Position numbers and translations under genes: made by a program | Part shown: piece after piece, positions 4,114-37,638 of the stretch | Layout of the letters: every line of letters begins with the position of its first letter | Numbering within the stretch: position 1 is the stretch's first letter | The notes under the pieces: generated by a model | Told to the model about the DNA's origin: nothing | The model's input: only the letters and a program-made list of their open reading frames with translations | Database searches by the model: none | Assembly: GCA_030680955.1 (NCBI GenBank) | Contig: JAUXUB010000042.1 | Span: forward strand, 1-39,519 | From: a bacterium | GTDB taxonomy: Bacteria > Patescibacteriota > Minisyncoccia > UBA6257 > JACOXY01 | Direction: 5' to 3' | Length of the DNA: 39,519 nucleotides

Positions 4114-4269
4114 ATACCATTTCCAATTAACCTCTACTCTTTTAACCTCGTCTTTGCGAGGAGGAACGACGAAGCAATCCAGATTTATCCCGTTATTTCC
4201 TGGATTGCCGCGGGCTTCGCCCTCGCAATGACAAAAGTCTTATAGGAAGTGGCTAATTAAGGATAGTAT
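4114..4269. mobile_element. 156-bp MITE-like element (family H3), copy A, inverted relative to copies B and C
   Basis: Near-identical to 10490-10635 and 37483-37638. It has terminal inverted repeats ATACCAT..CAATTAACC / GGTTAATTGG..ATGGTAT and an internal long imperfect hairpin (GTCATTGCGAGG..CCTCGCAAAGAC). Confidence 0.85.
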
Positions 4270-5295: not shown

Positions 5296-5391
5296 CAAGA
5301 TAATTCGAATCTACGAATTTTTAACGAATAATACAAATATAAAAACTCATTCGTTACATTCGTATTAAATTCGTATCATTCGCATTATAAT
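5296..5391. repeat. ATTCGT periodic palindrome (family H2)
   Basis: 3 ACGAAT units, then 4 ATTCGT units at about 10-11 bp spacing. It fills the whole spacer between the receiver gene stop and the rplS start. Confidence 0.8.
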
Positions 5392-5772: not shown

Positions 5773-5895
5773 AGAATTATTATAGCATACACACCAATTA
5801 ACCTACAACTGTGAACTCATAACTAACCACATAAAAATATATAATTTCAAATTTATACGTCGTTATTGGTCGTTAGTTATAAGTTGTGGGTTGTT

Positions 5896-5924
5896 CTTTA
5901 AAAGAGCTTTTAAGTTATCCCAAG
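5896..5924 (-). other. 3' half of the pre-16S processing stem
   Basis: The reverse complement TTGGGATAACTTAAAAGCTCTTTT pairs with the leader segment 9709-9735 (TTGGGATAACTTAAAAACTCTCTTTTT on the plus strand). Confidence 0.6.
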
Positions 5925-5956: not shown

Positions 5957-6050
5957 AATTCGAATGTTACGAATAAAGTAACGAATGATACGAATAGTTA
6001 GTATCCCAATTCGTTATATTCGTCGAGAAATTCGTTTAATTCGTATTACA
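5957..6050. repeat. ATTCGT periodic palindrome (H2) in the 16S trailer
   Basis: 4 inverted ACGAAT units followed by 4 ATTCGT units, ending in ATTCGTATTACA. The same end sequence occurs at 14317-14328. Confidence 0.8.
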
Positions 6051-6226
6051 TACAGCTCACCTTAGTGAGATGCAACGAGTCGTGGCTTGTGGCCTTACGA
6101 CTAATACCATTGACCAAATATTAGACTTGGTCGATCGACAAACTTTTTGTATTTAATTAATCCACGGACAGCTTCCGCTACCCGTGCCTTGTTACGACTT
6201 CTGCCATGTCACCGAACTTACCCTAA

Positions 6227-6407
6227 CCCAGCTTGAAATTTATGATTTCAAGCTGGAAAACTCTAAACTCTAATATCTAAACTCTAAACAAATGGGAAAT
6301 AAATTCTCAAAACTCAAAACTTTGAATTTTGGAATTTGAGATTGTTTAGGATTTAGGATTTCGATTTTAGGATTTCCCAGCTTAAAGTTCACAAACTTTA
6401 AGCTGGG
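6227..6407 (-). other. about 180-nt expansion at the tip of 16S helix 44
   Basis: It lies between the CCGCCCGTCAC region and AAGTCGTAACAAGG. Two CCCAGCTT..AAGCTGGG hairpins flank a hairpin of CTCTAAA / TTTAGGA 7-nt units. Confidence 0.75.
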
Positions 6408-6488
6408 CTTCAGGTATTCCCGGCTTCCTTGCAGTGACGGGCGGTGAGTACAAGATCCGAGAACGTATTCACCGCGCCATAGCTGATG

Positions 6489-6519
<31 letters not shown>

Positions 6520-6670
6520 GCGAGTTGCAGCCTCCAATCCGAACTGGGGCCAGATTTATGGGATTAGCTCCGGCTTGCGCCTTGGCAACCCTTTGTTCTG
6601 ACCATTGTAGCACGTGTGTAGCCCAGGACATCAGAGGGCCACGCTGATTTGACGTCATCCCCGCCTTCCT

Positions 6671-6800
6671 CCCCCCTCTTTGTTCACAAATGCGAAAGCT
6701 GATAGCTATTAGCTTATAGCTTTTAGAAAAAAAACTTTTAAATTCCTAAAAGCTAACAGCTCTAAGCTGAAAGCTTTGCGCTTATGCGCAAAGAGGGGGG
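6671..6800 (-). other. about 130-nt expansion hairpin in the 16S V7 region (helix 39-40 neighbourhood)
   Basis: CCCCCCTCTTTG...CAAAGAGGGGGG closes arms made of AGCTNNT-type 7-nt units. It sits immediately 5' (RNA sense) of GGAGGAAGGCGGGGATGACGTC. Confidence 0.7.
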
Positions 6801-6869
6801 CGGTTCTGTGTGACACTTGTAACACACAGTAGGGGTTGCGCTCGTTACCCCACTTAAGGGAACGTCTCC

Positions 6870-7788
6870 TATTTTTTTTAATCTCTAGATTACTTTAGAG
6901 TTAAGACTATACCTTCATCCCTCTCCACGCATGGGGAGGGAGCTGGCGTGTTAGCTAGAAAAACAATTGTTTATTTTTCTAACTCCTCCCTACTACGCCT
7001 TCGGCGAATAGGGAAAGTCGTTACAGGGTCTGGAAGTTTATATCGCATACTAGGAATGATATGAGGTAAAATTACCTCAAGAAATTTATTGTGTGAATTT
7101 TTTCTGATTGTTAGCTTTTTATTACTTCCTATCACTGTCTCAATGCCAAATTGTTCTAATAGGACATTTTGTACTCTTTGCATACTCAATAGATCGAAGC
7201 AGTCGGTTGATATTATAACTTTTTCCCCAGTCCAACAACCATCATCCATATACCAAACTGCTAATGACATTGGAGTAAGTTGAAGTCCTTCTGGAAATAC
7301 TTTCTTACCTTCCGAATAAAAAATTGTTCTCCATGGCCTAAAATATTGCCTAAGAACAAAGTATATAGAAGCGTATTGCTTATTACGCTTTTTATATTCT
7401 CTAACAATTTCTCGTGGTGATGCTGGATATGCTAAAGATTTTAACTCATCATATTTCCATATGACATAATCTTTTTGAGCGTTTGATTGCTCAATCCTGA
7501 TTTGTCCCTTAGGACGAATCGTAGCATCTCCTAGCACGCAACCAATTAAAATTTCACGCTGTCTCACGTTTACACGTAATACTAAATTTTTCCTAGCACA
7601 AAGCATTATTGGAACTTCCAAACTTCCCACGGTATTGCCCTCTGGTAACTGGTCACAAGACGCTGGTTTCTGGTACATTTTTTAATTATACCAGTCACCA
7701 GGCATTTAACACCAGCTATCAGTTCGGGTTTCACCGTTATGAGCCAGATTTTCAATCAGGATTACTCCTGAAAGTCTCGAGATTTCAA
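6870..7788 (-). mobile_element. about 919-bp insertion (probable group I-type intron) in 16S near E. coli position ~1070
   Basis: It interrupts CAGCTCGT|..|GAGACGTTCCCTTAAGT. About 110 nt and 100 nt of hairpin-rich non-coding flanks surround a LAGLIDADG ORF. Confidence 0.75.
6971..7678 (-). CDS. LAGLIDADG homing endonuclease (two motifs) inside the 16S insertion
   Basis: Motifs ILIGCVLGDATI and LAVWYMDDGCW are about 100 aa apart. The true start may be the internal Met at MLCARKN. Confidence 0.85.
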   Translation of the reverse strand: MYQKPASCDQLPEGNTVGSLEVPIMLCARKNLVLRVNVRQREILIGCVLGDATIRPKGQIRIEQSNAQKDYVIWKYDELKSLAYPASPREIVREYKKRNKQYASIYFVLRQYFRPWRTIFYSEGKKVFPEGLQLTPMSLAVWYMDDGCWTGEKVIISTDCFDLLSMQRVQNVLLEQFGIETVIGSNKKLTIRKNSHNKFLEVILPHIIPSMRYKLPDPVTTFPIRRRRSREELEK

Positions 7789-7900
7789 GATACGAGCTGA
7801 CGACAACCGTGCAGCACCTGTTCCTAGGTCCTTGAGAGACAACTCGCCTTTCGACAAGTCTTCCTAGAAATTTCAAGCCCTGGTAAGGTTCCTCGTTTAC

Positions 7901-7937
<37 letters not shown>

Positions 7938-7946
7938 TCCCCGTCT

Positions 7947-7978
<32 letters not shown>

Positions 7979-8079
7979 TCCCAGGCGGTCTGTTTAACGC
8001 GTTAGCTAAGCCACTCCGAGGGTCGATACTCGAAATAGCGAACAGACATCGTTTACGGCGTGGACTACAAGGGTATCTA

Positions 8080-8867
8080 CAATTTTGTTACTGAACAAAA
8101 TTGTAATTTTCAATTTTCAAACACCAATTTACAATTAAATTCCAATGCTTAAAACTTAAAATTACAAAATTATTACTGGCATGGACATTTCTACCATGCT
8201 CTGCATGTCGCCATGCAGTTCGGACTATATCTTATCAAAAAAATTATATGGCGAGTGAGATTCACTCGCCTTTTTTTGATCTCAGCGTATAGTCTCTGAG
8301 GGAATCACAAATTTATCTTGGTCTATTTTAAATCTATCTGGAATTAATTGCCTCATCAAGCAACCTATCTGGCGCTAAACGAAGCCCGCACACAGCACAA
8401 TGCGCATGCTTTTTATTTTCCAAACTCGTATTATTTTCAGAACAATTAATATCCATACAAACAGGTCTGGCTACAGTGGACAAACAATTTGAACACCATC
8501 CAGCGATTGTTTCCATGATATCCTCTTTCTTTGTGATCTTCCCTGCTGGTTGTCTGCACCAACAGATTTTTACCTTTCGGTACTGTTGGATACTCAGGGT
8601 TTCCAGCATATAGCTAAGTTATCCGAGCACATAAAGCTTATGTGCTCGGGGACTATTCTCCTCCATACCCATGGAGGGATTATTTTTTTGATTTTTGATT
8701 TCTAGCTGTGGTCAGGTCTTTGTGAAGAAGCTCTCGGAGCTCGATTTGCTTGGTCCGCCTCTGGCGGAAATCGAGCGAGAGCGCAGGTCCGATTTTTCGC
8801 AGGAAAAAATCGAGACCGATTCTAAACAAAGATCTGACCGCAGTAGACGCAAAAAAATAATCAGTTA
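8080..8867 (-). mobile_element. about 788-bp insertion in the 16S 790-loop region (GGAT|TAGATACCC)
   Basis: It splits the GGATTAGATACCC block. The 5' exon can end in U and the insert in G, as in group I introns. It contains many perfect helices, e.g. CCGAGCACATAA..TTATGTGCTCGG and GCTCGATTT..AAATCGAGC. Confidence 0.7.
8334..8609 (-). CDS. Cys-rich small ORF inside the second 16S insertion (function unknown)
   Basis: METIAGWCSNCLSTVARPVCMDINCSENNTSLENKKHAHCAVCGL has CxxC..C..C..CxxC, which looks zinc-ribbon-like. The probable start is the ATG at 8516. I see no LAGLIDADG, GIY-YIG or HNH motif. Confidence 0.35.
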   Translation of the reverse strand: MLETLSIQQYRKVKICWCRQPAGKITKKEDIMETIAGWCSNCLSTVARPVCMDINCSENNTSLENKKHAHCAVCGLRLAPDRLLDEAINSR

Positions 8868-9708
8868 ATCCTTTTTGCTCCCCACGCTTTCGTGTTTCAG
8901 GGTCAGGTGCGCCCCAGTGAACTGCCTTCGCCTTTGGTATTCCGCACGATATCAACGGATTTCACCCCTACACCGTGCGTTCTATTCACCTCTAGCGCCC
9001 TCTAGCACTGCAGTATCCTAAGCAGCCTTACCGTTAGGCGGTAAGATTTAACATAAGACTTGCAGAGCCCCCTACACACCCTTTACGCCCAATAAATCCG
9101 GATAACGCTCGAGGTCTACGTATTACCGCGGGTGCTGGCACGTAGTTACCAACCTCTTTCCATACGCTACTCTGCCGAAGCTTGTTTGCGTATTACCGCA
9201 GTTTACAACCCGAAGGCCTTCTTCCTGCACGCGGCGTCGCTCCATCAGGCTTTCGCCCATTGTGGAATATTCTCGACTGCTGCCTCCCGTAGGAGTACGG
9301 ACCGTTTCTCAGTTCCGTCGTTGGAGATCGGGCTCTCACCCCTCCTACCCGTCATAGCCTTGGTGAGCCATTACCTCACCAACTAGCTGATAGGACCTAA
9401 GCCACTCCCGAAGCGAATTGCTTCTTTAATATTGCTATACCATCGGATATTACCCCATCTTTCAATGGGCTATCTCCGACTTCGGGGTATGTACTAGGGT
9501 ATTACTAACTCGTTCGCCACTATCCGGCGCGTAGCGCCGGAACATTTAAATGTTGAAATATTTAAATATCCCAGTGCTACGCACTGGACCGTTCGACTTG
9601 CATGCCTTATCCACGCCGCCAGCGTTCATCCTGGACCAGGATCAAATCCTCTTTTAAAAATAAATTGCAAAGTACACTCGATCGAGGACCTTGCAATTAA
9701 TCTTTCTA

Positions 9709-9853: not shown

Positions 9854-9984
9854 CCCGCCCAAGCCTTCGCGCTTCTAGCGAAAGAAACTCTAAAATCTAA
9901 TTTCTAATTTCTAAATTCTAAAATTTTTGTTTAGGATTTAGATTTTAAACTTTAGGCTTTCCTTCTGAAAGAAGGCTGGGGCGG
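9854..9984. repeat. periodic-unit hairpin in the 16S leader
   Basis: CCCGCCCAAGCCTTC / GAAGGCTGGGGCGG closes arms of CTAAAAT/CTAATTT units paired with TTTAGGATTTAGATTTT. Confidence 0.7.
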
Positions 9985-10440: not shown

Positions 10441-10489
10441 AAATACAATTTTGTAATAAAAAGAAAAGTGTGATATTTTATACTATCCC

Positions 10490-10635
10490 CAATTAACCAC
10501 TTCCTTTAAGACTTTTGTCATTGCGAGGGCGAAGCCCGCGGCAATCTAGGAAATAACGGGATAAATTTGGATTGCTTCGTCGTTCCTCCTCGCAAAGACG
10601 AGATTAAAAGAGTAGTGGTTAATTGGGGATGGTAT
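10490..10635. mobile_element. MITE-like element (H3), copy B
   Basis: Same sequence family and orientation as 37483-37638. Confidence 0.85.
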
Positions 10636-11493: not shown

Positions 11494-11526
11494 TATTCGT
11501 ATATTCGCCAAATTCGTAAATTCGTG
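11494..11526. repeat. ATTCGT unit array (H2), 4 direct units
   Basis: TATTCGTATATTCGCCAAATTCGTAAATTCGTGG abuts the fusA stop codon. Confidence 0.7.
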
Positions 11527-13629: not shown

Positions 13630-13772
13630 AAAAAATCTAAAAAATAAAATATCAAATCTAAAATATACATCTCAAAATTAAAATCTTAAAAACGTGAAAC
13701 TGCTAAATCAAAATTGACCAGATTTAAGATGTAGTTTTGAGATTTAACCTTTGAGATTTCAGATAATTTTTA
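13630..13772. repeat. AT-rich periodic-unit hairpin (family H4) filling the rpsG-fusA spacer
   Basis: It shares the 23-nt core TAAGATGTAGTTTTGAGATTTAA (13725-13747) with 20799-21. The arms are AAATCT/ATCTCAAA units. Confidence 0.75.
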
Positions 13773-14240
13773 CTATCTCGCGAAATGAGCAAAAGCTCTG
13801 TTTGCTTCTGCCATTCTGTGGACATCTTGTTTCTTCTTTATAGCTGCGCCTTCATTCTTATAGGCTGCAAATAATTCTTCAGCAAGTTTATCTGCCATTG
13901 GCTTTCCTTTTTTTGCCCTAGCCGCAGAAATAATCCATCTAGCCGCTAACATAAAGCGTCTTTCACGCCTTACTTCATGAGGAACCTGATAGTTTGCTCC
14001 ACCAACTCGGCGTGAACGAACCTCAACCAAAGGAGATGCATTCTCTAATGCTTTTTCGAAAACATCTTTAGGGTCTAAGCTTTGTTCCTTTTTAATTTTT
14101 TCTAATGCGCCATAAACCACTCTTTCTGCTACGCTTTTTTTACCATCGTGCATAACATAGTTAATAAATCGCGAAATAGCGATGTTATCAAATTCAATAT
14201 CTGGCTTATAAAATTTTTTGTGGATTTGTTTTTTACGCAA
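13773..14240 (-). CDS. rpsG: 30S ribosomal protein S7
   Basis: ..VMHDGKKSVAERVVYGALE..VEVRSRRVGGANYQVP matches S7. The start is an apparent TTG. Confidence 0.95.
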   Translation of the reverse strand: MRKKQIHKKFYKPDIEFDNIAISRFINYVMHDGKKSVAERVVYGALEKIKKEQSLDPKDVFEKALENASPLVEVRSRRVGGANYQVPHEVRRERRFMLAARWIISAARAKKGKPMADKLAEELFAAYKNEGAAIKKKQDVHRMAEANRAFAHFAR

Positions 14241-14328
14241 GATAAAGCGAATACTACGAATTTATGAACGAATGATACGAATAAAATATTCGTATCATTC
14301 GGTATTCATTCGTGTCATTCGTATTACA
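14241..14328. repeat. ATTCGT periodic palindrome (H2) filling the rpsL-rpsG spacer
   Basis: ACGAATGATACGAATAAAATATTCGTATCATTCGG core with extra units on both sides. Confidence 0.85.
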
Positions 14329-15990: not shown

Positions 15991-16359
15991 TTAGAATAAA
16001 TCTGTGATTCGTGAACGTGCCAATTGATCCATCTCCTTATCATTATAATTGTCGATGTGTGTAGAAATACATAAAAAAGCGATGATGGAGCCTTTTACGC
16101 CAAACCACATTCTTGGATATTGATTCGGGCGCAAACCAGAATTTGGTATAACAAGCTCTACTTTCCACATCGACCAAATATCATTTTGTGTTATACGGTG
16201 AAGTTTGGCTGGCGCAACGACTTGTTTCGGATCTGTCGGATGGAATTGCACCTCACATAAGCGCTCAAATGCGGCGAAACCATCACGAACACAACGAAAT
16301 CGCCGCTCAATGGCAGCTATCTCTTTTTGGATTCCATCGTGATACAGAAACTCAATCAT
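15991..16359 (-). CDS. putative toxin, RelE/HigB-like fold (inferred)
   Basis: 122 aa. WKVELVIPNSGLRPNQYPRMWFGVKGSIIAFLCISTH resembles the RelE/ParE K.R...GKSGG.RvIY...I.LL core. ATGA overlap with the upstream Panacea gene. Confidence 0.5.
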   Translation of the reverse strand: MIEFLYHDGIQKEIAAIERRFRCVRDGFAAFERLCEVQFHPTDPKQVVAPAKLHRITQNDIWSMWKVELVIPNSGLRPNQYPRMWFGVKGSIIAFLCISTHIDNYNDKEMDQLARSRITDLF

Positions 16360-16847
16360 AGATCGCTAAAATCTGTACCACGATAGAAAGCTAATTCATA
16401 AGGTATTTCTTTTCGTAATTCAGTTCCAATAAAAGGTGCTTCGGCATGAGACAACTCTTCTAACTGTTTGCCATTAAGATGGCCATATTTTATTACAATG
16501 CGGTTAAGCATTTTCTTCTCTTCTTCATCAAAAACAGATACATCTGGTTTCGCAATACAGCGATATATTTCTGTTGCGTTATAGTCTTCGCGCTCTTTTA
16601 TATCTTGAATAGCAATCAATTTCTTTTTTGTCATTTCCGAAGTAATACCCTCAAGTCCCGATGGAAGCGGTCCCATAGGGAAAGCTTTATATACATCTCC
16701 GGTTAATGATCGCTGTCTTTTTTCGTACAAATCAAAATCAGCGAAATAGAGTAATTTCGCCAGCTTTTTCTTGCCACGCACCTCTCCGCCGAGCTTTTGG
16801 CATAAATACAGAACGGCATTCTGATACTTTTTTCGGTTTAGAACCAT
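16356..16847 (-). CDS. Panacea (DUF4065 / SocA-like) domain antitoxin
   Basis: KKLAKLLYFADFDLYEKRQRSLTGDVYKAFPMGPLP matches the DUF4065 signature. TATAAAT lies directly before the ATG. Confidence 0.7.
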   Translation of the reverse strand: MVLNRKKYQNAVLYLCQKLGGEVRGKKKLAKLLYFADFDLYEKRQRSLTGDVYKAFPMGPLPSGLEGITSEMTKKKLIAIQDIKEREDYNATEIYRCIAKPDVSVFDEEEKKMLNRIVIKYGHLNGKQLEELSHAEAPFIGTELRKEIPYELAFYRGTDFSDL

Positions 16848-18496: not shown

Positions 18497-20731
18497 ATGA
18501 AACTGTCAGGTTTAGAAAGTGAATATATTCTCTATTTAGCCTCTTTCCCTCCTAGAGAGTGCGGCATTGCAACATTTACACAAGATCTCACTACTGCTTG
18601 CGACAAGAAATTAAATCCTGCAATAAAATCACGCATTGCGGCTCTAAATGATGAACGCCATACAATATATAACTACGGTAATAAAGTAGTAGATCAAATT
18701 GTTGCTACAGAGCTTCATGAGTACGTAAAACTTGCAAAAAGAATCAACCTACAGGATGATATAAAAATTGTAAACATTCAGCACGAATTTGGCCTTTTTG
18801 GTGGCGAATGGGGCGACTATATAATCCCCTTTCTTCAGGCACTTGAAAAACCAGTTGTCGTAACATTTCATTCTGTAATGTCAGATCCAGACGATCACCT
18901 CAAAAGTGTTGTCCGCGCTATTGCCGAACACTCAAAGTCTTTAATCGTAATGAACAAGCTTTCTGAAAAGACTTTGATTGCAGACTATAAAGTTCCAAAA
19001 TATAAAATTGCCGTTATTCCTCATGGTATTCCATCTGCCACATTTGAACCAAGCGATATTTCGAAAGAAAAACTAGGGCTAAGTGGCAAAACAGTGCTTT
19101 CTACATTTGGAATGCTTAGCCCAAATAAAGGAATAGAATATGCTATCCGCGCTCTTCCAGAGGTTGTAAAACAATTTCCTAATGTGGTTTATTTAGTGCT
19201 TGGCGAAACTCATCCACTTATTAGAAAATCCAACGGAGAAGAATATAGAAACTTTTTAATAAGTGAGGTTGGACGACTCGGACTAGATAAAAACGTAAAG
19301 TTTTATAATAAATATTTAACTCTTGAAGAAATAGTTTCTTTCCTTAAAGCAACAGATATTTATATTGGACCATCACTTGATATGCAACAATCAGTTTCTG
19401 GTACGCTTTCATATGCTCTTGGATGCGGCAGACCAGTAATCTCTACAGCTTCAGAATATGCTAAATACTTAATAGATAGTAGTGTAGGACTTTTAGTTAG
19501 ACCAAAAAATGAACGTGCCTTAAAAGACGCGATGCTCCAAATGTTACAAGATCCAAGATGGATGAAAAGCTTAAGTGCGCAAGCATATGAAAAATCTCGC
19601 CATATGACTTGGCCTAATGTTGCAGGGGCTCACATGAATTTATATAAAAAATTCGCGGAATTTGGCGAAGAAGAAAAGAAATTGCCAGAACTTAAACTAG
19701 ACCACCTAAAGAGAATGACTGATAGCTTTGGTATTTTGCATTTCGCAAAATATAGTACGCCCGAGACACGTTATGGCTATAACCTAGATGACAATGCTCG
19801 CGCTTTGATTGTAGCGACGCAGAGCTATGCAAAAAACCATTCTGCGGAAATGTTAGACTACATAAAAATTTATTTAGATTATTTTGTTTATGTAATGCGG
19901 TCCGACGGAACTTTTGCCAATATCGTGTCATCTAAACTTGTCAAAGACGGAACAAGGGATGAAGATGTTCAAGGAAGAGCATTTTGGGCTCTTGGTTATG
20001 TGGCCGCACAAAATTCATTACCAAAGGAAATTGTAGACAAGGCAACAATACTTCTAAGGAAAGGGCTTCATAATGTTCGTACACTTAAATCACCTCGAGC
20101 AATAGCATTCACAACAATAGGATTATATTATTTCCTAAAGAGTAACCCCCAGAAGGCTTTAATGAATACATTTATAAAGTTTGCCGATACACTTACTGCG
20201 CTATATAAAAAAAATGCAGAACCCGACTGGCTTTGGTTTGAACCACATCTTACATATTCAAATGCCGCACTTCCAGAAGCGCTTTTCTATGCTTACGAAT
20301 TAGTGAAGGATAAGAAATACCTTAACGTTGCAGAAGAATCACTTTCTTTTCTTAAAGGTATTACATTCTCACAAAAACACTACTCGCCTATTGGCCAAAA
20401 GGGTTGGTTCTTCCGCGATAAAGCACGCGCCTTTTTTGACCAACAACCAGAGGATACCGCTCATATGGTTCAAACAAAACTTACTGCATATAATGTAACT
20501 AATAAAACCGAACACTTTGAAGACGCCTACAAAGCATTCCAGTGGTTTTTGGGTAAAAACTTCTTAAATCAAGTAATTTACGACGAAGCGACAGGTGGCT
20601 GTCACGACGGTTTAGGCAAAGACGGTGTAAACTTAAATCAAGGGTCAGAATCTACAATATCTTATCTTCTGGCTCGGCTAGCGTTTGAAAATATAAATAA
20701 GCCGCAGGCGGAATTAATTCAGGAAATCTAA
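18497..20731 (+). CDS. GT4 glycosyltransferase fused to a C-terminal alpha-helical (toroid-like) domain
   Basis: The N-terminal ~390 aa look like GT4 (..GETHPL.., ..SLDMQQSVSGTLSYALGCGRPVIST..). The C-terminal ~350 aa are helix-rich with W/Y/F repeats and are unassigned. Confidence 0.7.
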   Translation: MKLSGLESEYILYLASFPPRECGIATFTQDLTTACDKKLNPAIKSRIAALNDERHTIYNYGNKVVDQIVATELHEYVKLAKRINLQDDIKIVNIQHEFGLFGGEWGDYIIPFLQALEKPVVVTFHSVMSDPDDHLKSVVRAIAEHSKSLIVMNKLSEKTLIADYKVPKYKIAVIPHGIPSATFEPSDISKEKLGLSGKTVLSTFGMLSPNKGIEYAIRALPEVVKQFPNVVYLVLGETHPLIRKSNGEEYRNFLISEVGRLGLDKNVKFYNKYLTLEEIVSFLKATDIYIGPSLDMQQSVSGTLSYALGCGRPVISTASEYAKYLIDSSVGLLVRPKNERALKDAMLQMLQDPRWMKSLSAQAYEKSRHMTWPNVAGAHMNLYKKFAEFGEEEKKLPELKLDHLKRMTDSFGILHFAKYSTPETRYGYNLDDNARALIVATQSYAKNHSAEMLDYIKIYLDYFVYVMRSDGTFANIVSSKLVKDGTRDEDVQGRAFWALGYVAAQNSLPKEIVDKATILLRKGLHNVRTLKSPRAIAFTTIGLYYFLKSNPQKALMNTFIKFADTLTALYKKNAEPDWLWFEPHLTYSNAALPEALFYAYELVKDKKYLNVAEESLSFLKGITFSQKHYSPIGQKGWFFRDKARAFFDQQPEDTAHMVQTKLTAYNVTNKTEHFEDAYKAFQWFLGKNFLNQVIYDEATGGCHDGLGKDGVNLNQGSESTISYLLARLAFENINKPQAELIQEI

Positions 20732-20734
20732 TAA

Positions 20735-20840
20735 ATAAAATCTTAAATCTCAAATGTATATCTCAAATCTTAAATCTGTTCTAAAAAGATTTGAATTTTA
20801 AGATGTAGTTTTGAGATTTAATTTTTTAGATTTAAGATAT
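20735..20840. repeat. AT-rich periodic-unit hairpin (H4)
   Basis: It shares the 23-nt core with 13725-13747 and has AAATCT/ATCTCAAA units in inverted arrangement. Confidence 0.75.
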
Positions 20841-20841
20841 T

Positions 20842-22062
20842 ATGAAACTTATCGATATAGCATACAAAAAAGCCATTATTGCCCTAGAGCACTGCGCTAA
20901 ACCAGTTGGTTTTTATGCTTCTGGTTTAAAAGGTGGATACGAGGCCATTTGGGCGCGCGACTCAATGACAACTTCACTCGGCGCTTCGCTTGTCCGACTT
21001 CCGATGTCCAAAATATTAATGCCGTCTATTTCCGGACATCGGAAGTCACAAAATTGGGCTTTTAAAAATACTTTCCGGAAAAGCCTAGAAGCCCTTGGCA
21101 ATAATCAAGCCTGGCACGGAGCAATCCCTAACGCGGTTGGCTGTTGGAATAACGAAAGACAATCAGACGTAACATTTAACTCAATTGATTCCAGTTTATG
21201 GTTTATTATCGGGCATTATGTTTACTCATATGCCTACGCAGATAAATCATTAATCAAAAAAAATAAAAGGGAAATAGATGCTGCGCTTAAATGGGTTCAA
21301 TTTCAAGATCCAAATAACGACGGGCTTCCAGTGCAACAACCAACAATGGACTGGGAAGATATCTTCCCTCACAAATATGGCAGAGTTCTAAACACGCAGG
21401 CACTTTACTATGCTGCATTAAAATTTACTGGTGATAACAAAAAAGCTGAGCAGTTGAAAAGAATTGTAAATGGTGAGACACAAAAAACTATTTCGCTCTA
21501 TGATAAAAAGAGAGGTTATTATTCACCTTGGGTTTGGAAATATCACGGACCACTTGGTCGCGAGGAAGAACATTGGTTTGATACACTTGGAAATTTACTT
21601 GCAATTGTAACTGGACTTGCAACACCAGCAATTTCTAAAAACATCTTAAATTATATTGATAAAAATAAAGTTAACCGTCCATTTCCATGTAAGGCGATTT
21701 GGCCGACTATAAAGAAGGGCGACAAAGAATGGCATTGGTACTTTGACTCAGCGGAGTGCAAAAATCCATATCACTATTCAAATGCCGGCATCTGGCCATT
21801 TATTGGTGGATTTTATGTAGCTGCTTTAATAAAAGCGGGACAATTTAAAAAGGCGGAAAAGGAGTTAGAAAAACTGGCCGAAGGAAACAAAGAAGTTCAT
21901 CCAAAAGAAAAACGCGTTAAGGAATATGGTTTCCAAGAATGGCTTCATGGCAAGACTGGTAAGGCCATGGGCGGCTCCTCTGCTTACCAAGGTTGGTCAG
22001 CTGGAACGTATATTTATGCCTATGAATGCGTAAAAAATAAAAAAGTATTATTTTTTAAATAA
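20842..22062 (+). CDS. (alpha/alpha)6-barrel glycoside hydrolase, GDE_C / GH100-invertase-like
   Basis: IWARDS, TMDWEDIFPHKYGRVLNTQALYYAAL, YHYSNAGIWPFIGGFY and QGWSAGTYIYAY motifs. Confidence 0.7.
   Translation: MKLIDIAYKKAIIALEHCAKPVGFYASGLKGGYEAIWARDSMTTSLGASLVRLPMSKILMPSISGHRKSQNWAFKNTFRKSLEALGNNQAWHGAIPNAVGCWNNERQSDVTFNSIDSSLWFIIGHYVYSYAYADKSLIKKNKREIDAALKWVQFQDPNNDGLPVQQPTMDWEDIFPHKYGRVLNTQALYYAALKFTGDNKKAEQLKRIVNGETQKTISLYDKKRGYYSPWVWKYHGPLGREEEHWFDTLGNLLAIVTGLATPAISKNILNYIDKNKVNRPFPCKAIWPTIKKGDKEWHWYFDSAECKNPYHYSNAGIWPFIGGFYVAALIKAGQFKKAEKELEKLAEGNKEVHPKEKRVKEYGFQEWLHGKTGKAMGGSSAYQGWSAGTYIYAYECVKNKKVLFFK
20992..21057 (-). repeat. H1 hairpin copy inserted in frame in the hydrolase CDS (codons 51-72)
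   Basis: The reverse complement CCAATTTTGTGACTTCCGATGTCCGGAAATAGACGGCATTAATATTTTGGACATCGGAAGTCGGACA aligns at about 85% identity with copy 1293-1354. 66 nt = 22 codons. Confidence 0.8.
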
Positions 22063-25499: not shown

Positions 25500-26465
25500 T
25501 CACAACAAAATTATAACCTCCTCCTCTAAATCAATTCCGAACTTATCTTTAACTTTATTTTTTGCTAACCAAATTAAATTTTGCACATCACCAGACGTCG
25601 CACCCTGCACGTTAACAATAAAATTGGGGTGCTTTGGTGAAATCATAGCGCCGCCATATGACACACCTCGTAGCCCCACTTCGGAAATAAGTCTAGCGGT
25701 GTGGAGTACTGGGAAAAAATCATCCTTTATAAATTGCTGGACTTTTTTATTATTTTTTTGCACTGAAGAAACTGGAACATTTTTAAAGATACTCCCAATA
25801 TTGGGATATTCTAGTGGATGTTTTTCCTTCCTATAATTTATTTTTTCTTGAATAGCTTTTTTTATTAATTTCTTATCACCTTTTTTAAGTTTAAGAGTAG
25901 CCTCCAAAATAATATACTTATTATTTTTTTTAAATATACTATTCCTGTACGCAAATTTACATTCTTTATTTGTAAACTTTATTACTTTAAATTTTAATAA
26001 ATTTTGCCTTGTAGATTTAGAGGGAATTTCTAACACCTTAACCAATAACAAATTATCTTTAATTTCGCCTCCGAAACAACCAGCATTGCCACGTATGGCA
26101 CCACCTAATGTTCCAGGGAGTCCTCCGGCCCACTCTAGTCCCGACAAACCTTCTTTAACTGTATAATTTAAAATATCTGACATTAATGTTCCAGCACCTA
26201 CTACAACATTCCAACATTCTTGAGAATGTTGGAATGTTGTTTTTATAAAATTAAGATTAGGTTTTATAACCACACCATCAAAACCAGAATCGCTAAAAAG
26301 AATATTTGTTCCACCACCTAAAACAAAAATAGAGAGATCTATCTCCCTGGCGTGGATTATAGCTTTTTTTAATTGTGGAAGGCTATTGGCTTCAAAAAAA
26401 TATCTGGCATTCCCACCAATGCGATAGTTACTAAACTTAGCGAGTGAGATATCGCGCTTTAGCAT
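25500..26465 (-). CDS. murB: UDP-N-acetylenolpyruvoylglucosamine reductase
   Basis: ..YRIGGNARYFFE..VLGGGTNILFSD.GFDGVVI.. and C-terminal ..GGAMISPKHPNFIVN... Start taken at the ATG at 26465 (MLKRD), not the track's 26549. Confidence 0.9.
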   Translation of the reverse strand: MLKRDISLAKFSNYRIGGNARYFFEANSLPQLKKAIIHAREIDLSIFVLGGGTNILFSDSGFDGVVIKPNLNFIKTTFQHSQECWNVVVGAGTLMSDILNYTVKEGLSGLEWAGGLPGTLGGAIRGNAGCFGGEIKDNLLLVKVLEIPSKSTRQNLLKFKVIKFTNKECKFAYRNSIFKKNNKYIILEATLKLKKGDKKLIKKAIQEKINYRKEKHPLEYPNIGSIFKNVPVSSVQKNNKKVQQFIKDDFFPVLHTARLISEVGLRGVSYGGAMISPKHPNFIVNVQGATSGDVQNLIWLAKNKVKDKFGIDLEEEVIILL

Positions 26466-31841: not shown

Positions 31842-31921
31842 ATCCCATTAGAAGCGCGGCAAATAAAGTTGAGCAAATTACTATGCAGTAGACTCATTCG
31901 ATGATTCGCTTCTAACGGGAT
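31842..31921. repeat. inverted pair of ATCCCGTTAGAAGCG motifs (H5) spanning the reductase stop codon
   Basis: ATCCCATTAGAAGCG (31842-56) pairs with CGCTTCTAACGGGAT (31907-21). The single mismatch is a G-U pair only in the minus (sense) transcript. Confidence 0.8.
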
Positions 31922-34900
31922 TAATTTCTGAATTTACTGGCATAGCAACTGCAGGCAACTCCACTTCGCAAACACCAGATACACAAGCAAGTTCTTTTGC
32001 GCCTTGCGTTTGATCATCTTTCTCGTAAGTTACAATGTAAGAGAAATCTACTTGTGGAAGTTTTGCTGTAAGCTCTTTATATCTTTCTTCTGTTATTTCT
32101 TCATATGGCGCGAGTTGGTAAACGTGGTCTTCTCTTGGCAAAAAAGAAAGTCCTCCCAAGATTGGCCAATTTTTATAAAGCCAGTTTGAAGTTTCAATCC
32201 ATTCATCGTTCCCGACAGAAATTGTTACAGATGGATTATGTTCGGTATAATTTTCTTTAACTTTTTTCCAATACTCAAGTTGTTCAATTGCAGAAAGATC
32301 ATCCTTAAAAATTGAGCCTCCTGGAGCTTTAACTGGAAATTCCAAAACATATGTTGAGGCGGATTCGGAACTTTGCCCAACTTCCGGATAATATGGAAAT
32401 TTCTGCTCTTTTAGCATTTGGAATAGCGAATCGGAAGCCGCAATTCTTACTCTTCTAATATAAAACTTAGCGTGCCTTGGGTGCATTCCAGAAGAGGCAT
32501 CCACCAACTGAGAAACTGTTCCAGATGGCTTAACGCAAGTTATAGATGCAGATCGATTTACACCAAAGCGCTTTGCATATTCTTTGTTTACTTCGATGGC
32601 ATACTCTCTCATTTTGGTAAGAGTTTTAGGATTTCTTGCCGCGTGAGAATCCCACTGCCCTGTAATAGAAACTCCGAGAAGTCTCTCTTCATCACAATTT
32701 TGCTTCCATTCCTTTGAGAGGTATGGAAAATTGGTGAGAGTTGACTGGTATGTACCCAAAATCGTAGCTAATTCGATCTTTCTTAGTAATGTTTTTTCAG
32801 TGTCCTCTGCTCTTGCCACTACTTCTGTTAAATTGCAGAAACTTTTAGAACGAAGGATTATTTCGCCACATTGCAAATTATTAAGATAAACTAATTTTCT
32901 TTTACCATTTCTAGTTTCAGAAGCAAACCCACCTACAAAATAATTGTGATACTCATCAACAGTTCCATTATATACATCTTCATAGCCGATAAATTCAATC
33001 GAGGCGACTTTGTGATTATACATTTCTGCAAATTCTCTTAAATTCTCATAAGTTCTAAATGGTGAACTAACCCTTGCGATTTCTGAACTTATATTATTTT
33101 CTCGGCAAGCACTCAACCATTCAATTTTTAATGGTTCTCTGCCAATCTTAAATTTAAGATCGGTAAAGATTTTGGCTTGTTCCATTCGTCGCAATTCTTT
33201 GCGTTTATGGTGTACTTCATTAAGACGATCAACAAAATCACTTTTTAATTCAGGGTTACTCCATGCGCGTTTTAGTCCGCAAGAAATACCACAGACGCCG
33301 TATTCGCGACGGCCTATACCCGCTTCAAATCGTTTTCCGCAAACCTCACAATTTTTTTTAATGACCACCTGTCCATCTCTTATTTCGCAGTTATAGCCAT
33401 CTTTGGTATATTTTTTGTATGAAGCCACAACCCGCGGATCAGCATCAGCATAGTCAAAGCCAAGTTCTATTGCTGCCCATTTTGCAAGTCCCAGAACGCC
33501 ATCCAAATGATCTCTTCTCCATTTGCTAAAAAATTGCGGCAACCCATTCTCTTTTGCATAGTATATCCAATCCTTATTAGTAAATCTTTTTTCTAGTTTT
33601 TTAGATAAAGCAAGCGCATGTTCTCGTAGTTCTTCATCAGTAATACCAGAAAAGTTTTTATTTCTTGTGCCAGTATTATTTTTAGAATGTTTGGCTCGAT
33701 ATTCTATCCATTTTTGTTCGTTCCATTCAAATAAAGCACGCTTCATTGGATTTGCATCTCCAATCATTAAACTACTATGAAGAGAGTCGTGAGCTTGCTT
33801 ACTTAAAAGCTCAAGATTTTCAGGAGTATTATTTTGAGCATTTCTATCTCGGTGATGTACTACAAAATCTTTTGGTATTTGCGTATTATAATAAAATTCC
33901 GCAATAACACGATGTTCCGCAGCATTATTAGTTTTTCCTGAATTTAACCACCAGTAATCTTGTGACCTAGAATTTGCCTTTGGAAAAATATCTTTAATAG
34001 AAGCTTCGAACTTAGTGATTATCTGTAAACTATCGCCAGGATGTAAATCTTTTACTTGTCTATATTCGCCAGTTTTCAATCTAAATTTATGATTAGCTGT
34101 TGCCTTAACACTCGAACCATCATCAAGCATCATTCTGTATATAGGCTCTCTAAAACCTGTTACACGCGGATTGCGCATATATCTGACAACTGTTTTGTTT
34201 TTATTATCCAAACAAAAAACCGGCACATCTTTCCCTTCTTCAGTAAGCTGCTTTATAGATACGTGACCACGACCATCAGCAACATAAACAAGCGTATCAC
34301 CTGAAACACAAGGATTTGTGCCAGAAGTTGCCAAATGCTTTTTAAACTTCTTAAAACGCCTCTCCGGCATTTGTTTCTCTAGTCCGCCACGGTTAAATAT
34401 TCCCCTCTCTCCAGAACCGCTTTGCGCCAGCGCCAACCATTCCCCCAAAAACTCGGTAGTCGTTGGCTTGGAATTATATGTTGCGGAATTATTAGCCATA
34501 GAACGTTGTGGCTCGGTGAGATAAAATTTGCCAGCCTTGGAATCTCTCATTTTGTCGTCATCTAGGTCTGAGAGTGAAATAAGCGCCGTACGTCTCACTC
34601 CACCCATGACAACCACTTCTCCGATTTTACAAATTACATCATGAACATCAACGGTTGAAAGTCTCTTCCCTTGTCTAGATAATATTTTAGTTCTAGCAAA
34701 ATCTAAAAGTGCACGCAGTGGCTCTGGCCCAGAGCTTCTACCACCCATCGTCATAAGACGAGCTCCAGCGGGACGAAGTGCAGAATAATCAAATTTTACG
34801 TCGTGACCCGAATACCATGTCTTTAATCCATGAGTTAATGCGTCTCCCCAACCTTCTTTGCTATCTTCAATAACGTGGGTTATGAGCATCTTGCCAGTTT

Positions 34901-35655: not shown

Positions 35656-35745
35656 ATTCGAATATTACAAATTTTTTTACGAATGATACGAATAATTTTT
35701 TAATTCGTTACATCCGAAGTTATATTCGTGACGTTCGTATTGTTA
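35656..35745. repeat. ATTCGT periodic palindrome (H2) directly upstream of the reductase start
   Basis: TACGAATGATACGAATAA ... AATTCGTTAC..TATTCGTGACGTTCGTATTG. Confidence 0.8.
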
Positions 35746-37300: not shown

Positions 37301-37482
37301 ATGAACATTAATCAAATCGCGAATTAAGGTCTCTAATTCTCTCAAATGCCGTAAGATTTCGAGAATATTCGAGATTCCAATTCGAGACTTTACTCATAAG
37401 TTACCTAATTATCGCTACTATCCTACTACAAAATACTAGAAGAATGCAAATCAATAAAAAAGGAGCAATTATGGCCCAATTT

Positions 37483-37638
37483 ATACCATCCTCAATTAAC
37501 CACTTCCTAAAAGACTTTTGTCATTGCGAGGGCGAAGCCCGCGGCAATCCAGGAAATAATGAGATAAATCTAGATTGCTTCGTCGTTCCTCCTCGCAAAG
37601 ACGAGATTAAAAGAGTAGTGGATAATTGGGGATGGTAT
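37483..37638. mobile_element. MITE-like element (H3), copy C, in the ftsA-ftsZ spacer
   Basis: ATACCATCCTCAATTAACCAC...GTGGATAATTGGGGATGGTAT. Near-identical core to copies A and B. Confidence 0.85.

What the first reader, a model, noticed from the sequence alone, without database searches (positions are those of the whole stretch)
5296..5391. Long palindromes built from ~10-bp ATTCGT units flank housekeeping genes
Six loci carry these units: 5296-5391, 5957-6050, 11494-11526, 14241-14328, 35656-45 and a weaker one at 37365-95. Each has 3-4 ACGAAT-containing units followed by 3-5 ATTCGT-containing units, spaced at roughly one helical turn. The result is 80-100-bp imperfect palindromes. They fill whole spacers: receiver to rplS, rpsL to rpsG, the fusA 3' end, the 16S trailer, and immediately upstream of nrdJ. 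Helical-phase repeats of a fixed hexamer resemble an operator or iteron array for a DNA-binding protein. As RNA they would form long hairpins inside the str operon transcript.
Basis: seen in the sequence. Interest (0 to 1): 0.65.

Follow-up and report, generated by a model that had tools for sequence, protein, structure and literature searches.

The report
Gene-less ends of nuclease mini-cassettes
The ATTCGT repeat palindromes are real, but they are most likely not switches for housekeeping genes: they look like gene-less copies of the two ends of a small, widespread, probably selfish gene cassette that encodes a "GxxExxY" nuclease, and they come and go between closely related bacteria.

Summary
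Four 88-96 bp palindromes (5296-5391, 5957-6050, 14241-14328, 35656-35745) each carry 4+4 ACGAAT/ATTCGT units spaced about 9-12-9 bp. Two one-armed arrays lie at 11494-11526 and 37357-37395. This is far beyond chance.

The operator reading is only partly supported. The closest relatives (S7 84-92% identical) have 14 bp, a half array, or an unrelated palindrome in the same rpsL-rpsG spacer.

The same kind of ladder occurs in many phyla and in phage fragments. It sits tightly between genes of any function, and its RNA fold shows no strand bias.

The key link is to small GxxExxY genes (PF13366/TIGR04256), whose model has a PD-(D/E)XK nuclease fold. In loci chosen without reference to the hexamer, these genes sit between inverted arrays of short units (14 of 15). 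In CPR relatives the arrangement is xCGAAT x4, ORF, ATTCGx x4, with the window's short-long-short spacing, often between rpsG and fusA.

The window copies are therefore best read as ORF-less and solo-arm derivatives of such cassettes, analogous to MITEs or REPINs. Recognition of the hexamers by the nuclease is inferred, not shown. No GxxExxY gene lies in the window.

The parts
5296..5391 (.). ORF-less ladder palindrome that fills the receiver-rplS spacer. Units on the + strand: TTCGAAT, ACGAAT x2, a degenerate ACAAAT | ATTCGT x3, ATTCGC.
   Evidence: (-26.6 kcal/mol, z -3.7)
5957..6050 (.). ORF-less ladder palindrome with 4+4 units spaced 9-12-9 | 9-12-9. It lies about 110 nt downstream of the 16S 3' end and upstream of the receiver gene.
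   Evidence: (-28.0 kcal/mol, z -4.7)
11494..11526 (-). Solo arm. Read on the transcript strand it is four ACGAAT/GCGAAT units (spacing 8-9-8) starting 4 nt after the fusA stop. There is no partner arm and no fold.
   Evidence: (z 0.13)
14241..14328 (.). ORF-less ladder palindrome that fills the whole rpsL-rpsG spacer, with 4+4 units spaced 9-12-9 | 9-11-9. It starts directly after the rpsL TAA stop. The flank 'tttatc' on its rpsG side resembles the start of the 14-bp spacer of relative L201.
   Evidence: (-32 kcal/mol, z -5.5)
35656..35745 (.). Decayed ORF-less ladder palindrome 8 nt upstream of the nrdJ start. Several units are mutated (ACAAAT, ATCCG, GTTCGT).
   Evidence: (-18.5 kcal/mol, z -2.0)
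37357..37395 (-). Solo arm of three variant units (TCGAAT/TCGAAA on the transcript strand, spacing 10 and 13) just upstream of ftsZ. It does not fold.
   Evidence: (z 0.52)

Best explanation
The ATTCGT ladders are the paired ends of a small insertion cassette, present here without its gene.

The complete form is seen in related Patescibacteria and in other phyla. It is an array of 3-4 xCGAAT units, then a 125-140 aa ORF of the GxxExxY family (PF13366 PDDEXK_3 / TIGR04256; modelled PD-(D/E)XK nuclease fold with conserved D...ExK residues), then the inverted array of ATTCGx units. It is inserted a few bases behind the stop codon of an operon gene, in the operon's orientation.

The window holds four ORF-less copies, in which the two arrays abut and so form an 88-96 bp palindrome, and two solo arms. 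These are related to the cassette as MITEs are to transposons, or REPINs to RAYT genes. They are gained and lost quickly and carry no gene-specific regulatory role.

Inferred, not shown:
- The hexamers in their fixed short-long-short geometry are the sites the GxxExxY nuclease recognises, probably as symmetric oligomers on DNA, to move or maintain the element.
- Because the arms can pair, the insertion folds out of the host transcript. That would explain why it is tolerated in tight operon spacers.
For: 1. Gene-array link.
- A jackhmmer search over all ORFs of all loci held at that point found 8 GxxExxY genes. Every one is bounded by NCGAAT...ATTCGN arrays.
- The gene sits in the loop of a split ladder in L043, L120, L123, L125 and L182. 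In L018, L071 and L112 it lies between whole ladders.

2. Unbiased samples.
- The CPR loci were chosen by S7 only. Three of the 4 ACGAAT clusters in their 481 kb abut a GxxExxY gene lying between rpsG and fusA.
- Loci chosen by protein homology alone and annotated 'GxxExxY protein' genes of cultured bacteria give 15 genes in all. Fourteen have evident inverted arrays or inverted repeats around the ORF, and 7 of those use NCGAAT.

3. Same architecture as the window. L123, L125, L276, L278 and L280 have 4+4 units with mirror-symmetric short-long-short spacing (7-8 / 10-12 / 7-8), against 9/12/9 in the window. Their arrays start 4-12 nt after the upstream stop codon, much as window loci 1, 3 and 4 start 0-7 nt after one.

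4. Co-occurrence. L123 carries an ORF-less ACGAAT ladder (rpsL-rpsG) and an ORF-containing cassette (rpsG-fusA) side by side.

5. Turnover. The rpsL-rpsG spacer measures 14, 46, 88 and 205 bp among genomes with 84-92% identical S7. Among about 70 more distant relatives it is either 0-20 bp or filled by palindromes of various unit types.

6. Dispersal. There are 21 phage-contig loci, against 1 each for two control hexamers of the same composition. The other abundant family, ACAGAG (46 loci), also brackets GxxExxY genes in Bacteroides finegoldii and Bernardetia.

7. Constraint is on the hexamers and is symmetric between strands.

8. The protein. D75, E85, K87, E36, Y39 and Q99 are invariant in 44 sequences. 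The AF2 model has pLDDT 92. Its best PDB folds are Cas4, lambda exonuclease and the Hjc resolvase.
Against: - No GxxExxY ORF lies in the 39.5 kb window or in about 38 kb from its closest relatives. A source of the protein in this genome is therefore unproven.
- No binding or cleavage data exist. Recognition of the hexamers by the nuclease is inference.
- Unit type does not simply follow protein similarity. An ACGAAT-type protein (P0158) is 43-47% identical to ACAGAG-type proteins but only 37% to CPR ACGAAT-type ones.
- In the Chloroflexota examples the gene lies between whole palindromes rather than inside one, so the 'two ends' picture is not universal.
- The direction of derivation is open: the ORF may have been lost from cassettes, or it may have inserted into pre-existing hairpins.
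- Target-site duplications could not be established. The only hint is a TAA directly after the right end in L123, L125, L276 and L280.
- The four window copies differ in their spacers, so they are not recent copies of one master.
Confidence: 0.65

Rival explanations
1. Reverse direction. The ladder hairpins are the primary, independently spreading element (an IVS- or MITE-like hairpin). GxxExxY genes are homing-endonuclease-like passengers that cut the intact palindrome at its centre and insert there. On this view the window's copies are uninvaded hosts or targets rather than decayed cassettes.
For: - ORF-less copies far outnumber ORF-containing ones: 127 elements against 5 genes in the pattern-selected loci.
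- The ORF sits exactly where the loop would be.
- A homodimeric PD-(D/E)XK nuclease naturally reads a symmetric site.
- GxxExxY genes sit in ladders of several different unit families, and unit type does not track protein identity.
- L147 compared with L200 shows a ladder lying inside the loop of a smaller hairpin.
Against: - It does not explain how ORF-less hairpins spread on their own, or why the ORF's stop codon lies inside the right array and the C-terminal tail (..NSDSYIRKDS) is translated array sequence.
- The Chloroflexota genes lie between whole ladders, not inside one.
Confidence: 0.25
2. Host RNA elements. The palindromes act as hairpins in the str-operon and other transcripts. Possible roles are processing sites (RNase III), 3' stabilisers, partial terminators, or an S7-type autoregulatory structure between rpsL and rpsG.
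For: - Stable predicted folds on the sense strand. In loci 1 and 2 the sense strand folds better than the antisense.
- Position just behind stop codons, and after phage capsid and Mu-F-like genes.
- Ladder sequence is present in rumen metatranscriptome contigs with many different flanks.
- From general knowledge, E. coli S7 regulates through the rpsL-rpsG spacer.
Against: - No strand asymmetry in 48 co-directional cases: the sense strand folds better in 25 and the antisense in 23, with G:U pairs 72 against 78.
- Identical hexamers rather than covarying pairs, and long spacers not complementary.
- Absent from the same spacer in a relative with 92% identical S7.
- Not terminator-like. Flanks are T-rich before and A-rich after, and the organism has canonical GC-hairpin plus T-run terminators elsewhere.
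- No Rfam family matches.
- Solo arms cannot fold.
Confidence: 0.12
3. The arrays are operators or iterons for a host DNA-binding regulator, such as the window's two-component system, that co-ordinates translation and replication genes.
For: Fixed hexamer, a 21-bp super-period (two helical turns), and inverted symmetry. In the window the elements sit next to rplS, 16S, rpsL/rpsG, fusA, nrdJ and ftsZ.
Against: - Not conserved in close relatives.
- The receiver lacks an output domain.
- Three of the six loci lie behind stop codons or inside an operon, not at promoters.
- Across phyla there is no gene-class bias, and convergent contexts exceed divergent ones.
- The same arrays bracket a nuclease gene in many genomes.
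Confidence: 0.04
4. Purely local origin. The ladders arise in place by replication slippage of 9-12 bp units plus template switching that mirrors one arm onto the other. No mobility and no trans-acting protein are involved.
For: - Unit-number change between close relatives: one extra GAGATTT unit in L204 in the rpsG-fusA ladder.
- Arm-wise homogenisation in L138, where the right arm is ATTAGT x4 opposite ACGAAT/GCGAAT.
- Many unit types exist.
Against: - It cannot explain why the same hexamer with the same 4+4 geometry recurs at unrelated loci and in distant phyla.
- It cannot explain why two unit families are 20-45 times commoner than control hexamers.
- It cannot explain why the arrays bracket one particular gene family.
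Confidence: 0.06

Closest known systems
REP/REPIN elements and their RAYT genes (GTAG- and CGTC-tagged palindromic repeats, PMC3733652)
   Same: Both are short intergenic palindromes in many copies per genome that cannot move alone. In both, a small nuclease or transposase-like gene is itself flanked by the repeats in inverted orientation. Both sit mostly behind genes and inside operons.
   Different: - The protein has a PD-(D/E)XK fold (GxxExxY), not an HUH/Y1 transposase.
- The arms are ladders of 3-4 hexamer units rather than one GC-rich stem with a GTAG/CGTC tag.
- The unit is shared across phyla and with phages, whereas REPs are species-specific.
MITEs, for example the Correia, ERIC and RUP families (review PMC3184786)
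   Same: Both are non-coding, about 100 bp long, have inverted ends, are dispersed, show presence/absence between relatives, and appear derived from a coding element.
   Different: No DDE transposase partner is involved, and no target-site duplication was demonstrated. The ends are internally repetitive.
rRNA intervening sequences with an ORF, for example the Coxiella burnetii 23S IVS encoding S23p (PMC4990558)
   Same: Both are selfish insertions in which a small ORF lies in the loop of a long stem formed by flanking inverted repeats. ORF-less hairpin versions exist for both. Both are tolerated because the stem folds out of the host RNA.
   Different: The ATTCGT ladders lie in mRNA spacers, not in rRNA helices. 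The ORF family differs. RNase III excision was not tested here. Separately, the window's own 16S gene carries hairpin insertions of other unit types.
Free-standing and intron-borne homing endonuclease genes
   Same: A small nuclease gene sits inside what looks like its own symmetric recognition site, and its distribution is sporadic.
   Different: The 'site' is itself an insertion absent from relatives, not a conserved host gene. No cleavage data exist.
Intergenic TAACTGA heptamer direct repeats of Beggiatoaceae, Cyanobacteria and Bacteroidetes (PMC4679880)
   Same: One short motif is repeated in intergenic DNA, is shared by distant phyla, sits next to genes of any function including ribosomal-protein genes, and has no known binding factor.
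   Different: Those are contiguous direct repeats just upstream of start codons. They have no inverted arm and no associated gene.
Operator and centromere arrays of ribbon-helix-helix proteins and plasmid iterons (general knowledge)
   Same: Arrays of 6-11 bp units occur in direct and inverted orientation with fixed phasing and are bound co-operatively.
   Different: Those sit next to the regulator's own operon or a plasmid origin in one or a few copies. They are conserved where present and are not dispersed through operon spacers.
TIGR arrays of TIGR-Tas systems, common in CPR and phages (PMC12045711)
   Same: Both are arrays of very short repeats found in Patescibacteria and phages.
   Different: TIGR units are 36-nt direct repeats (two 8-12 nt repeats alternating with 9-nt spacers), occur 5-15 times, and lie next to a Nop-domain tas gene. 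None of this applies here.

Membership tests
Operator/iteron array of a host regulator | Conserved at orthologous regulatory regions in related genomes | tested here: not met
   The rpsL-rpsG spacer is 14 bp (L201/L202), 205 bp with other elements (L204) and 46 bp with a half array (L205), against 88 bp in the window. It is 0-20 bp in about 40 more distant relatives.
Operator/iteron array of a host regulator | Association with a functional class of genes and with promoters | tested here: not met
   143 Pfam families among 78 neighbouring genes, at most 2 each. 86 gene 3' ends face the element against 69 gene 5' ends. Convergent pairs 24 against divergent 11.
Operator/iteron array of a host regulator | A cognate DNA-binding regulator encoded nearby | tested here: not met
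   The adjacent response regulator has a receiver domain only.
Intrinsic terminator | GC-rich stem followed by a T-run on the transcribed strand | tested here: not met
   Outer flanks are T-rich before and A-rich after the element. The scan calls canonical terminators elsewhere in the window but calls no ladder on the sense strand.
Structured RNA family (Rfam) | A match to a curated covariance model, and strand-specific G:U tolerance | tested here: not met
   No match at gathering threshold in the window or in 18 loci. Only sub-threshold miRNA-precursor-like hits. Sense against antisense fold 25:23.
MITE-like non-autonomous element | Short, non-coding, inverted ends, several dispersed copies | tested here: met
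   Four 88-96 bp copies plus two solo arms in 39.5 kb. Ends are tgtaat...attaca/attata.
MITE-like non-autonomous element | Presence/absence polymorphism between related genomes | tested here: met
   In the related strain in run X2 the two spacers do not align, measuring 120 and 151 bp against 99 and 95 bp in the window.
MITE-like non-autonomous element | A coding relative that shares the same ends | tested here: met
   GxxExxY cassettes with 4+4 xCGAAT/ATTCGx ends in L123, L125, L182, L276, L278 and L280. None was found in the window itself.
MITE-like non-autonomous element | Target-site duplication | tested here: inconclusive
   A TAA follows the right end in 4 CPR cassettes, opposite the upstream gene's stop codon. 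No clean empty/filled pair was available.
REP/RAYT system | A GTAG or CGTC tag on the palindrome and a Y1 (HUH) transposase partner | tested here: not met
   Ends are GCC/ACC...GGC/GGT or tgtaat...attaca. The partner gene is PF13366 PDDEXK_3.
TIGR-Tas array | 36-nt direct units with two alternating repeats and 9-nt spacers, next to a Nop-domain gene | tested here: not met
   The units here are 6 nt with 3-6 nt spacers in inverted arms. No such gene lies nearby.
GxxExxY (PF13366/TIGR04256) cassette end | Inverted arrays of short units immediately flanking a GxxExxY ORF | tested here: met
   Met in relatives: 14 of 15 genes chosen without reference to the hexamer, and 5 of 5 in pattern-chosen loci. 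The window copies lack the ORF.
GxxExxY (PF13366/TIGR04256) cassette end | Binding or cleavage of the arrays by the protein | not testable with these tools
   Only fold and motif evidence is available: conserved D...ExK residues, an AF2 model with pLDDT 92, and Cas4 / lambda exonuclease / Hjc as the nearest folds.
rRNA-type intervening sequence | Excision of the hairpin from the transcript by RNase III | not testable with these tools
   No RNA run exists for this organism; only DNA runs were found.

The most novel reading that the evidence does not exclude
GxxExxY proteins form a family of at least 15,000 clusters at 50% identity with no assigned function. On this reading they are the sequence-reading nucleases of a previously undescribed class of mini-cassette. 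That class would span many phyla and phages, and its ends are ladders of 6-nt units. The nuclease would move or maintain both the cassettes and their far more numerous ORF-less palindromes, by homing into or cutting at the symmetric array.

A bolder variant is that the arms mark the element for excision from operon transcripts, which would make it a protein-assisted intron-like insertion in bacterial mRNA.
Probability: 0.3. Interest if true: 0.8.

Novelty: new variant of a known kind. Interest (0 to 1): 0.6.

Why it matters
Three things follow if this holds.

1. It gives a concrete, testable role to a very large protein family that has a name but no assigned function. PF13366/TIGR04256 has 34,565 clusters at E<=0.001 in 1.84 billion representative proteins.

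2. It explains a class of conspicuous "ladder" palindromes that recur between genes in Patescibacteria, Bacteroidota, Chloroflexota, Acidobacteriota, Planctomycetota, Verrucomicrobiota and their phages.

3. It warns annotators that such arrays next to ribosomal-protein, rRNA or nrd genes are insertion debris rather than regulons.

The hexamer/protein pairs (ACGAAT, ACAGAG, CTGAT and CTAAT types) would also offer a natural series for studying how a minimal PD-(D/E)XK nuclease reads DNA.

The searches of the held paper library that I ran found nothing linking GxxExxY genes to flanking repeat arrays. 'GxxExxY' occurs in 3 papers; the one passage I read mentions it only in passing as a neighbouring-gene annotation. 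That library lacks most subscription journals, so prior description elsewhere cannot be excluded.

Tried and rejected
- Exact look-up of the window's EF-G: not on record.
- Literature searches by hexamer strings returned primers and CRISPR papers. The one promising hit, the Porphyromonas 77-bp inverted repeat bound by HU, is an unrelated sequence.
- Rfam in gathering and E-value modes found no family.
- TIGR arrays were considered because they are common in CPR and phages. They were rejected on unit size, direct orientation and the missing tas gene.
- Type III restriction sites (CGAAT, CAGAG), tRNA T-loop similarity (TTCGAAT), loxP-like cores, RNA polymerase pause motifs and Rho binding were considered from memory only. 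They were dropped for lack of any supporting test.
- BLAST of a consensus ladder against cultured phage genomes gave only 2 unannotated records.
- Metatranscriptome contigs of rumen Prevotella show that the ladder sequence is present in RNA-derived assemblies with many different flanks. They cannot show transcript ends.
- I looked for a common cassette gene inside split ladders of other unit types. The ORFs found were a glutaredoxin, a Phd-like antitoxin and unannotated ones, with no consistent family.
- A sequence search of the PDB with the GxxExxY protein found nothing. Only fold comparison gave relatives.
- A clean target-site duplication could not be derived from the available empty and filled spacers.

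Full report
**1. The observation**

The hexamer ATTCGT and its complement are barely enriched in the window as a whole: 33 sites against 24.3 +/- 5.2 in shuffles. They are, however, packed into a few places. Fifteen neighbour distances are 12 bp or less, against 0.31 expected and a maximum of 4 in 10,000 random placements. A composite pattern of two ACGAAT, a gap and two ATTCGT hits four loci and none of 100 shuffles.

Reading the sequence gives four full palindromes:
- 5296-5391
- 5957-6050
- 14241-14328
- 35656-35745

Each is built as 4+4 units with alternating steps of about 9, 12 and 9 bp. Each ends in tgtaat/attaca-like sequence and usually has a TTCGAAT outermost unit on one side. All four have the same polarity relative to the minus-strand genes. 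Two further loci, 11494-11526 and 37357-37395, are single arms.

Annotation confirms the stated neighbours: rplS, a receiver-only response regulator, an intron-bearing 16S gene, fusA, rpsG, rpsL, an intein-bearing nrdJ, and ftsZ. S7 homologues carry names such as Candidatus Liptonbacteria and Paceibacterota. The sequence comes from a groundwater metagenome.

**2. What is constrained**

Across the four copies the hexamers match the consensus at 93% of positions (pairwise identity 0.90). The 3-nt spacers are 0.56 identical. The 5-7-nt spacers are not even complementary between the two arms.

The predicted RNA is therefore a ladder of 6-bp helices separated by internal loops. MFE is -18.5 to -32 kcal/mol with z-scores of -2.0 to -5.5. 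The solo arms do not fold.

No Rfam family matches. The organism has ordinary GC-hairpin plus T-run terminators elsewhere, and the ladders are not called as terminators on the sense strand.

**3. Relatives of this organism**

S7 homologues at 84-92% identity were traced to their contigs. Two spacers were compared.

| Genome (S7 identity) | rpsL-rpsG spacer | rpsG-fusA spacer |
|---|---|---|
| Window | 88 bp, ATTCGT ladder | 143 bp, AAATCT-unit ladder |
| L201/L202 (92%) | 14 bp | 79 bp, unrelated sequence |
| L204 (91%) | 205 bp, GTATCA-unit palindrome plus GC hairpins | 152 bp, same AAATCT ladder with one extra unit and a different loop |
| L205 (84%) | 46 bp, three ATTCGT/ATTCGC units in one orientation | 3 bp |

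In about 70 more distant relatives the rpsL-rpsG spacer is either 0-20 bp or 70-125 bp. The long ones are filled by palindromes of various unit types, several of them ACGAAT-like (L123, L138, L178, L133).

This is the behaviour of insertions that come and go, not of a conserved operator.

**4. The same ladder elsewhere**

The phyla are Chloroflexota, Bacteroidota, Acidobacteriota, Planctomycetota, Verrucomicrobiota, Desulfobacterota, Nitrospirota and Patescibacteria.

The canonical form in those genomes is GCC-(ACGAATTNC)n, a loop, then (GNAATTCGT)n-GGC. It has a 9-bp period and 2-4 units per arm.

The elements fit tightly between ORFs. Flank orientations are co-directional 55, convergent 24 and divergent 11. 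Their neighbours span 143 Pfam families among 78 genes. In 48 co-directional cases the sense strand folds no better than the antisense: 25 against 23, with G:U pairs 72 against 78.

In viral contigs the same pattern design gave these counts:
- ACGAAT: 21 loci
- ACAGAG: 46 loci
- two control hexamers of identical base composition: 1 locus each

The carriers are tailed-phage fragments, and the copies sit right behind capsid, connector and Mu-F-like genes.

So only certain unit families are abundant, and the constraint is symmetric between strands.

**5. The link to a gene**

Two of the 78 neighbouring genes were PF13366 (PDDEXK_3). NCBIfam names them GxxExxY protein, TIGR04256. Both proved to be bracketed by ACGAAT ladders.

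A jackhmmer search over every ORF of every locus held at that point, plus the window, found eight such genes and none in the window. All eight are bounded by NCGAAT...ATTCGN arrays.

In Prevotella L043, Acidobacteriota L120 and the CPR loci L123, L125 and L182 the ORF sits where the loop of the palindrome would be. The three CPR cases lie between rpsG and fusA. They account for three of the only four ACGAAT clusters in 481 kb of loci that had been chosen by S7 alone.

*Independent tests.* Homologues of the L123 protein were traced to contigs and their flanks were read.
- L276 and L280 (rpsG-GxxExxY-fusA) and L278 (T2SS F-GxxExxY-pilin) have 4+4 units with mirror-symmetric spacing of 7-8 / 10-12 / 7-8. 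The start codon lies 4-10 nt after the last left unit, and the stop codon lies inside the right array.
- L288 (Marinilabiliaceae) has the canonical CACGAATTN form.
- L284 and L289 use CTGAT/ATCAG units, with outer ACGAAT/ACGGAT units opposite ATCCGT/ATTCGT.
- L282 and L290 use CTAAT/ATTAG units.

Annotated 'GxxExxY protein' genes of cultured bacteria gave further cases.
- Bacteroides finegoldii (radA-GxxExxY-FAD protein) and Bernardetia lie inside split ACAGAG ladders.
- The Treponema saccharophilum gene lies inside a plain split inverted repeat.
- For Prevotella nigrescens only the left array is evident.

In total, 14 of 15 genes chosen without reference to the hexamer have evident inverted arrays or inverted repeats around the ORF.

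**6. The protein**

An alignment of 44 sequences has E36, Y39, D75, E85, K87 and Q99 invariant, giving a D...ExK nuclease motif. The AlphaFold2 model has pLDDT 92. Its nearest solved folds are Cas4 SSO0001, the lambda-exonuclease family and the Hjc resolvase, at modest scores. No PDB entry matches by sequence.

A profile search counts 34,565 clusters at E<=0.001 and 15,098 at E<=1e-10 among 1.84 billion representative proteins. Some hits are tandem-domain proteins.

**7. Interpretation**

*What the data show.* The window's ladders have the unit, the unit number (4+4), the short-long-short spacing and the position just behind a stop codon that characterise the two ends of GxxExxY cassettes in related Patescibacteria. 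They lack the ORF. Such ORF-less copies coexist with a full cassette in L123. They are gained and lost on the time scale of 8-16% S7 divergence.

*What is inferred.* The nuclease reads the hexamers. The support is hexamer-only conservation, fixed geometry, symmetry, and a protein family always found with such arrays. The nuclease would then mobilise or maintain the ORF-less copies. Pairing of the arms would let the insertion fold out of the host transcript, so that it is tolerated in tight operon spacers.

*What remains open.* The direction of derivation is unsettled: the ORF may have been lost from cassettes, or it may have homed into hairpins. Unit type does not simply track protein similarity. 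The Chloroflexota genes lie between whole palindromes. No GxxExxY gene is in the window.

**8. Comparison with known systems**

The nearest analogues are:
- REPIN/RAYT pairs and MITEs, for the relation between repeats and a coding relative.
- ORF-bearing rRNA intervening sequences such as the Coxiella IVS (PMC4990558), for the ORF-in-a-stem architecture.
- The unexplained cross-phylum TAACTGA repeats (PMC4679880).

TIGR arrays (PMC12045711), intrinsic terminators, Rfam RNAs and host operator arrays each fail defining features that were tested here.

The searches of the held paper library that I ran found nothing that links GxxExxY genes to flanking repeat arrays.

**9. Verdict**

The operator-for-housekeeping-genes reading is not supported, although the idea of a protein-read array probably survives in another form.

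The best explanation is ORF-less ends of GxxExxY nuclease cassettes, with confidence about 0.65 for that identity. Confidence in the proposed recognition mechanism is lower.

Noticed in passing
window 13669-13757, 20718-20846, 9885-9953, 5798-5901, 26203-26240: Further ladder palindromes built from other short units (AAATCT/AGATTT, AACT../..GTT, ACAACATTC). They fill the rpsG-fusA spacer, a spacer between two glycosyl-hydrolase/transferase genes, and the 16S leader region. The rpsG-fusA one is shared with relative L204 but has one unit fewer and a different loop.
   Followed up: partly
window 6163-9649 (minus strand); insertions at 6247-6386, 6695-6777, 6971-7678: The 16S rRNA gene is interrupted several times. 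One insertion encodes a LAGLIDADG endonuclease. Two are ORF-less ladder hairpins (AAACTCT and TAGCT units). Other 16S sequences in the same metagenomes skip these segments and carry short loops instead. The TAGCT ladder shares the 18-mer AGCTGATAGCTATTAGCT with the rpsL-rpsG spacer of a distant relative (L185).
   Followed up: partly
window 4150-4232, 10480-10635, 37483-37638: Three copies of a nested palindromic element: an inner pair GTCATTGCGAGGGCGAAGCCCGCGGCAATC / GATTGC..CTCGCAAAGAC. In two of the copies it is enclosed by a 22-bp outer inverted repeat (ATAC.ATCC.CAATTAACCACT). It looks like another MITE-like family.
   Followed up: no
window 1161, 1331, 1422, 1487, 2421, 4739, 4817, 4877 (+ strand) and 22105 (- strand): Nine copies of a small hairpin repeat containing AATATTTGGG, flanked by complementary ..GACCCGATGACC / GGTCATCAGGTC..-like arms. 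They are clustered in three intergenic regions.
   Followed up: no
window 31881-35648 (minus strand): The class II (B12-dependent) ribonucleotide reductase carries an intein with an HNH endonuclease domain.
   Followed up: no
window 15991-16847 (minus strand): A SocA/Panacea-domain gene (16356-16847) overlaps by 4 bp a downstream 122-aa ORF with no family match (15991-16359). This may be a toxin-antitoxin pair.
   Followed up: no
window 14238-14240: rpsG appears to start with TTG directly after the ladder. The three close relatives have ATG at the aligned position.
   Followed up: partly
L230-L275 (viral contigs); L292 and L294 (Bacteroides finegoldii, Bernardetia): A second abundant ladder family has the form (G/A)CC-(ACAGAGNNC)n...(GNNCTCTGT)n-GG(C/T). 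It has 46 phage-contig loci, often 2-3 per contig. It also brackets GxxExxY genes, and some copies are nested inside outer CGCAAAGAG-unit arms.
   Followed up: partly
L123 4651-4660, L125 1828-1838, L276, L280 (right ends of cassettes): In four CPR cassettes a TAA follows the right inverted end and precedes the fusA ATG by 3-4 nt. This mirrors the rpsG stop codon on the left side. In a genome without the insertion the junction is TAA-ttt-ATG. It may be a 3-bp target duplication at the stop codon.
   Followed up: partly
L165 6677-7166: A 109-aa ORF with weak Phd/YefM-antitoxin similarity lies between two whole ladder palindromes of GAAATCAAG units. Ladders of other unit types can therefore flank other small genes.
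   Followed up: partly
P0178-P0199 and other hits: Many of the best profile hits are proteins of about 265 aa with two GxxExxY domains in tandem.
   Followed up: no
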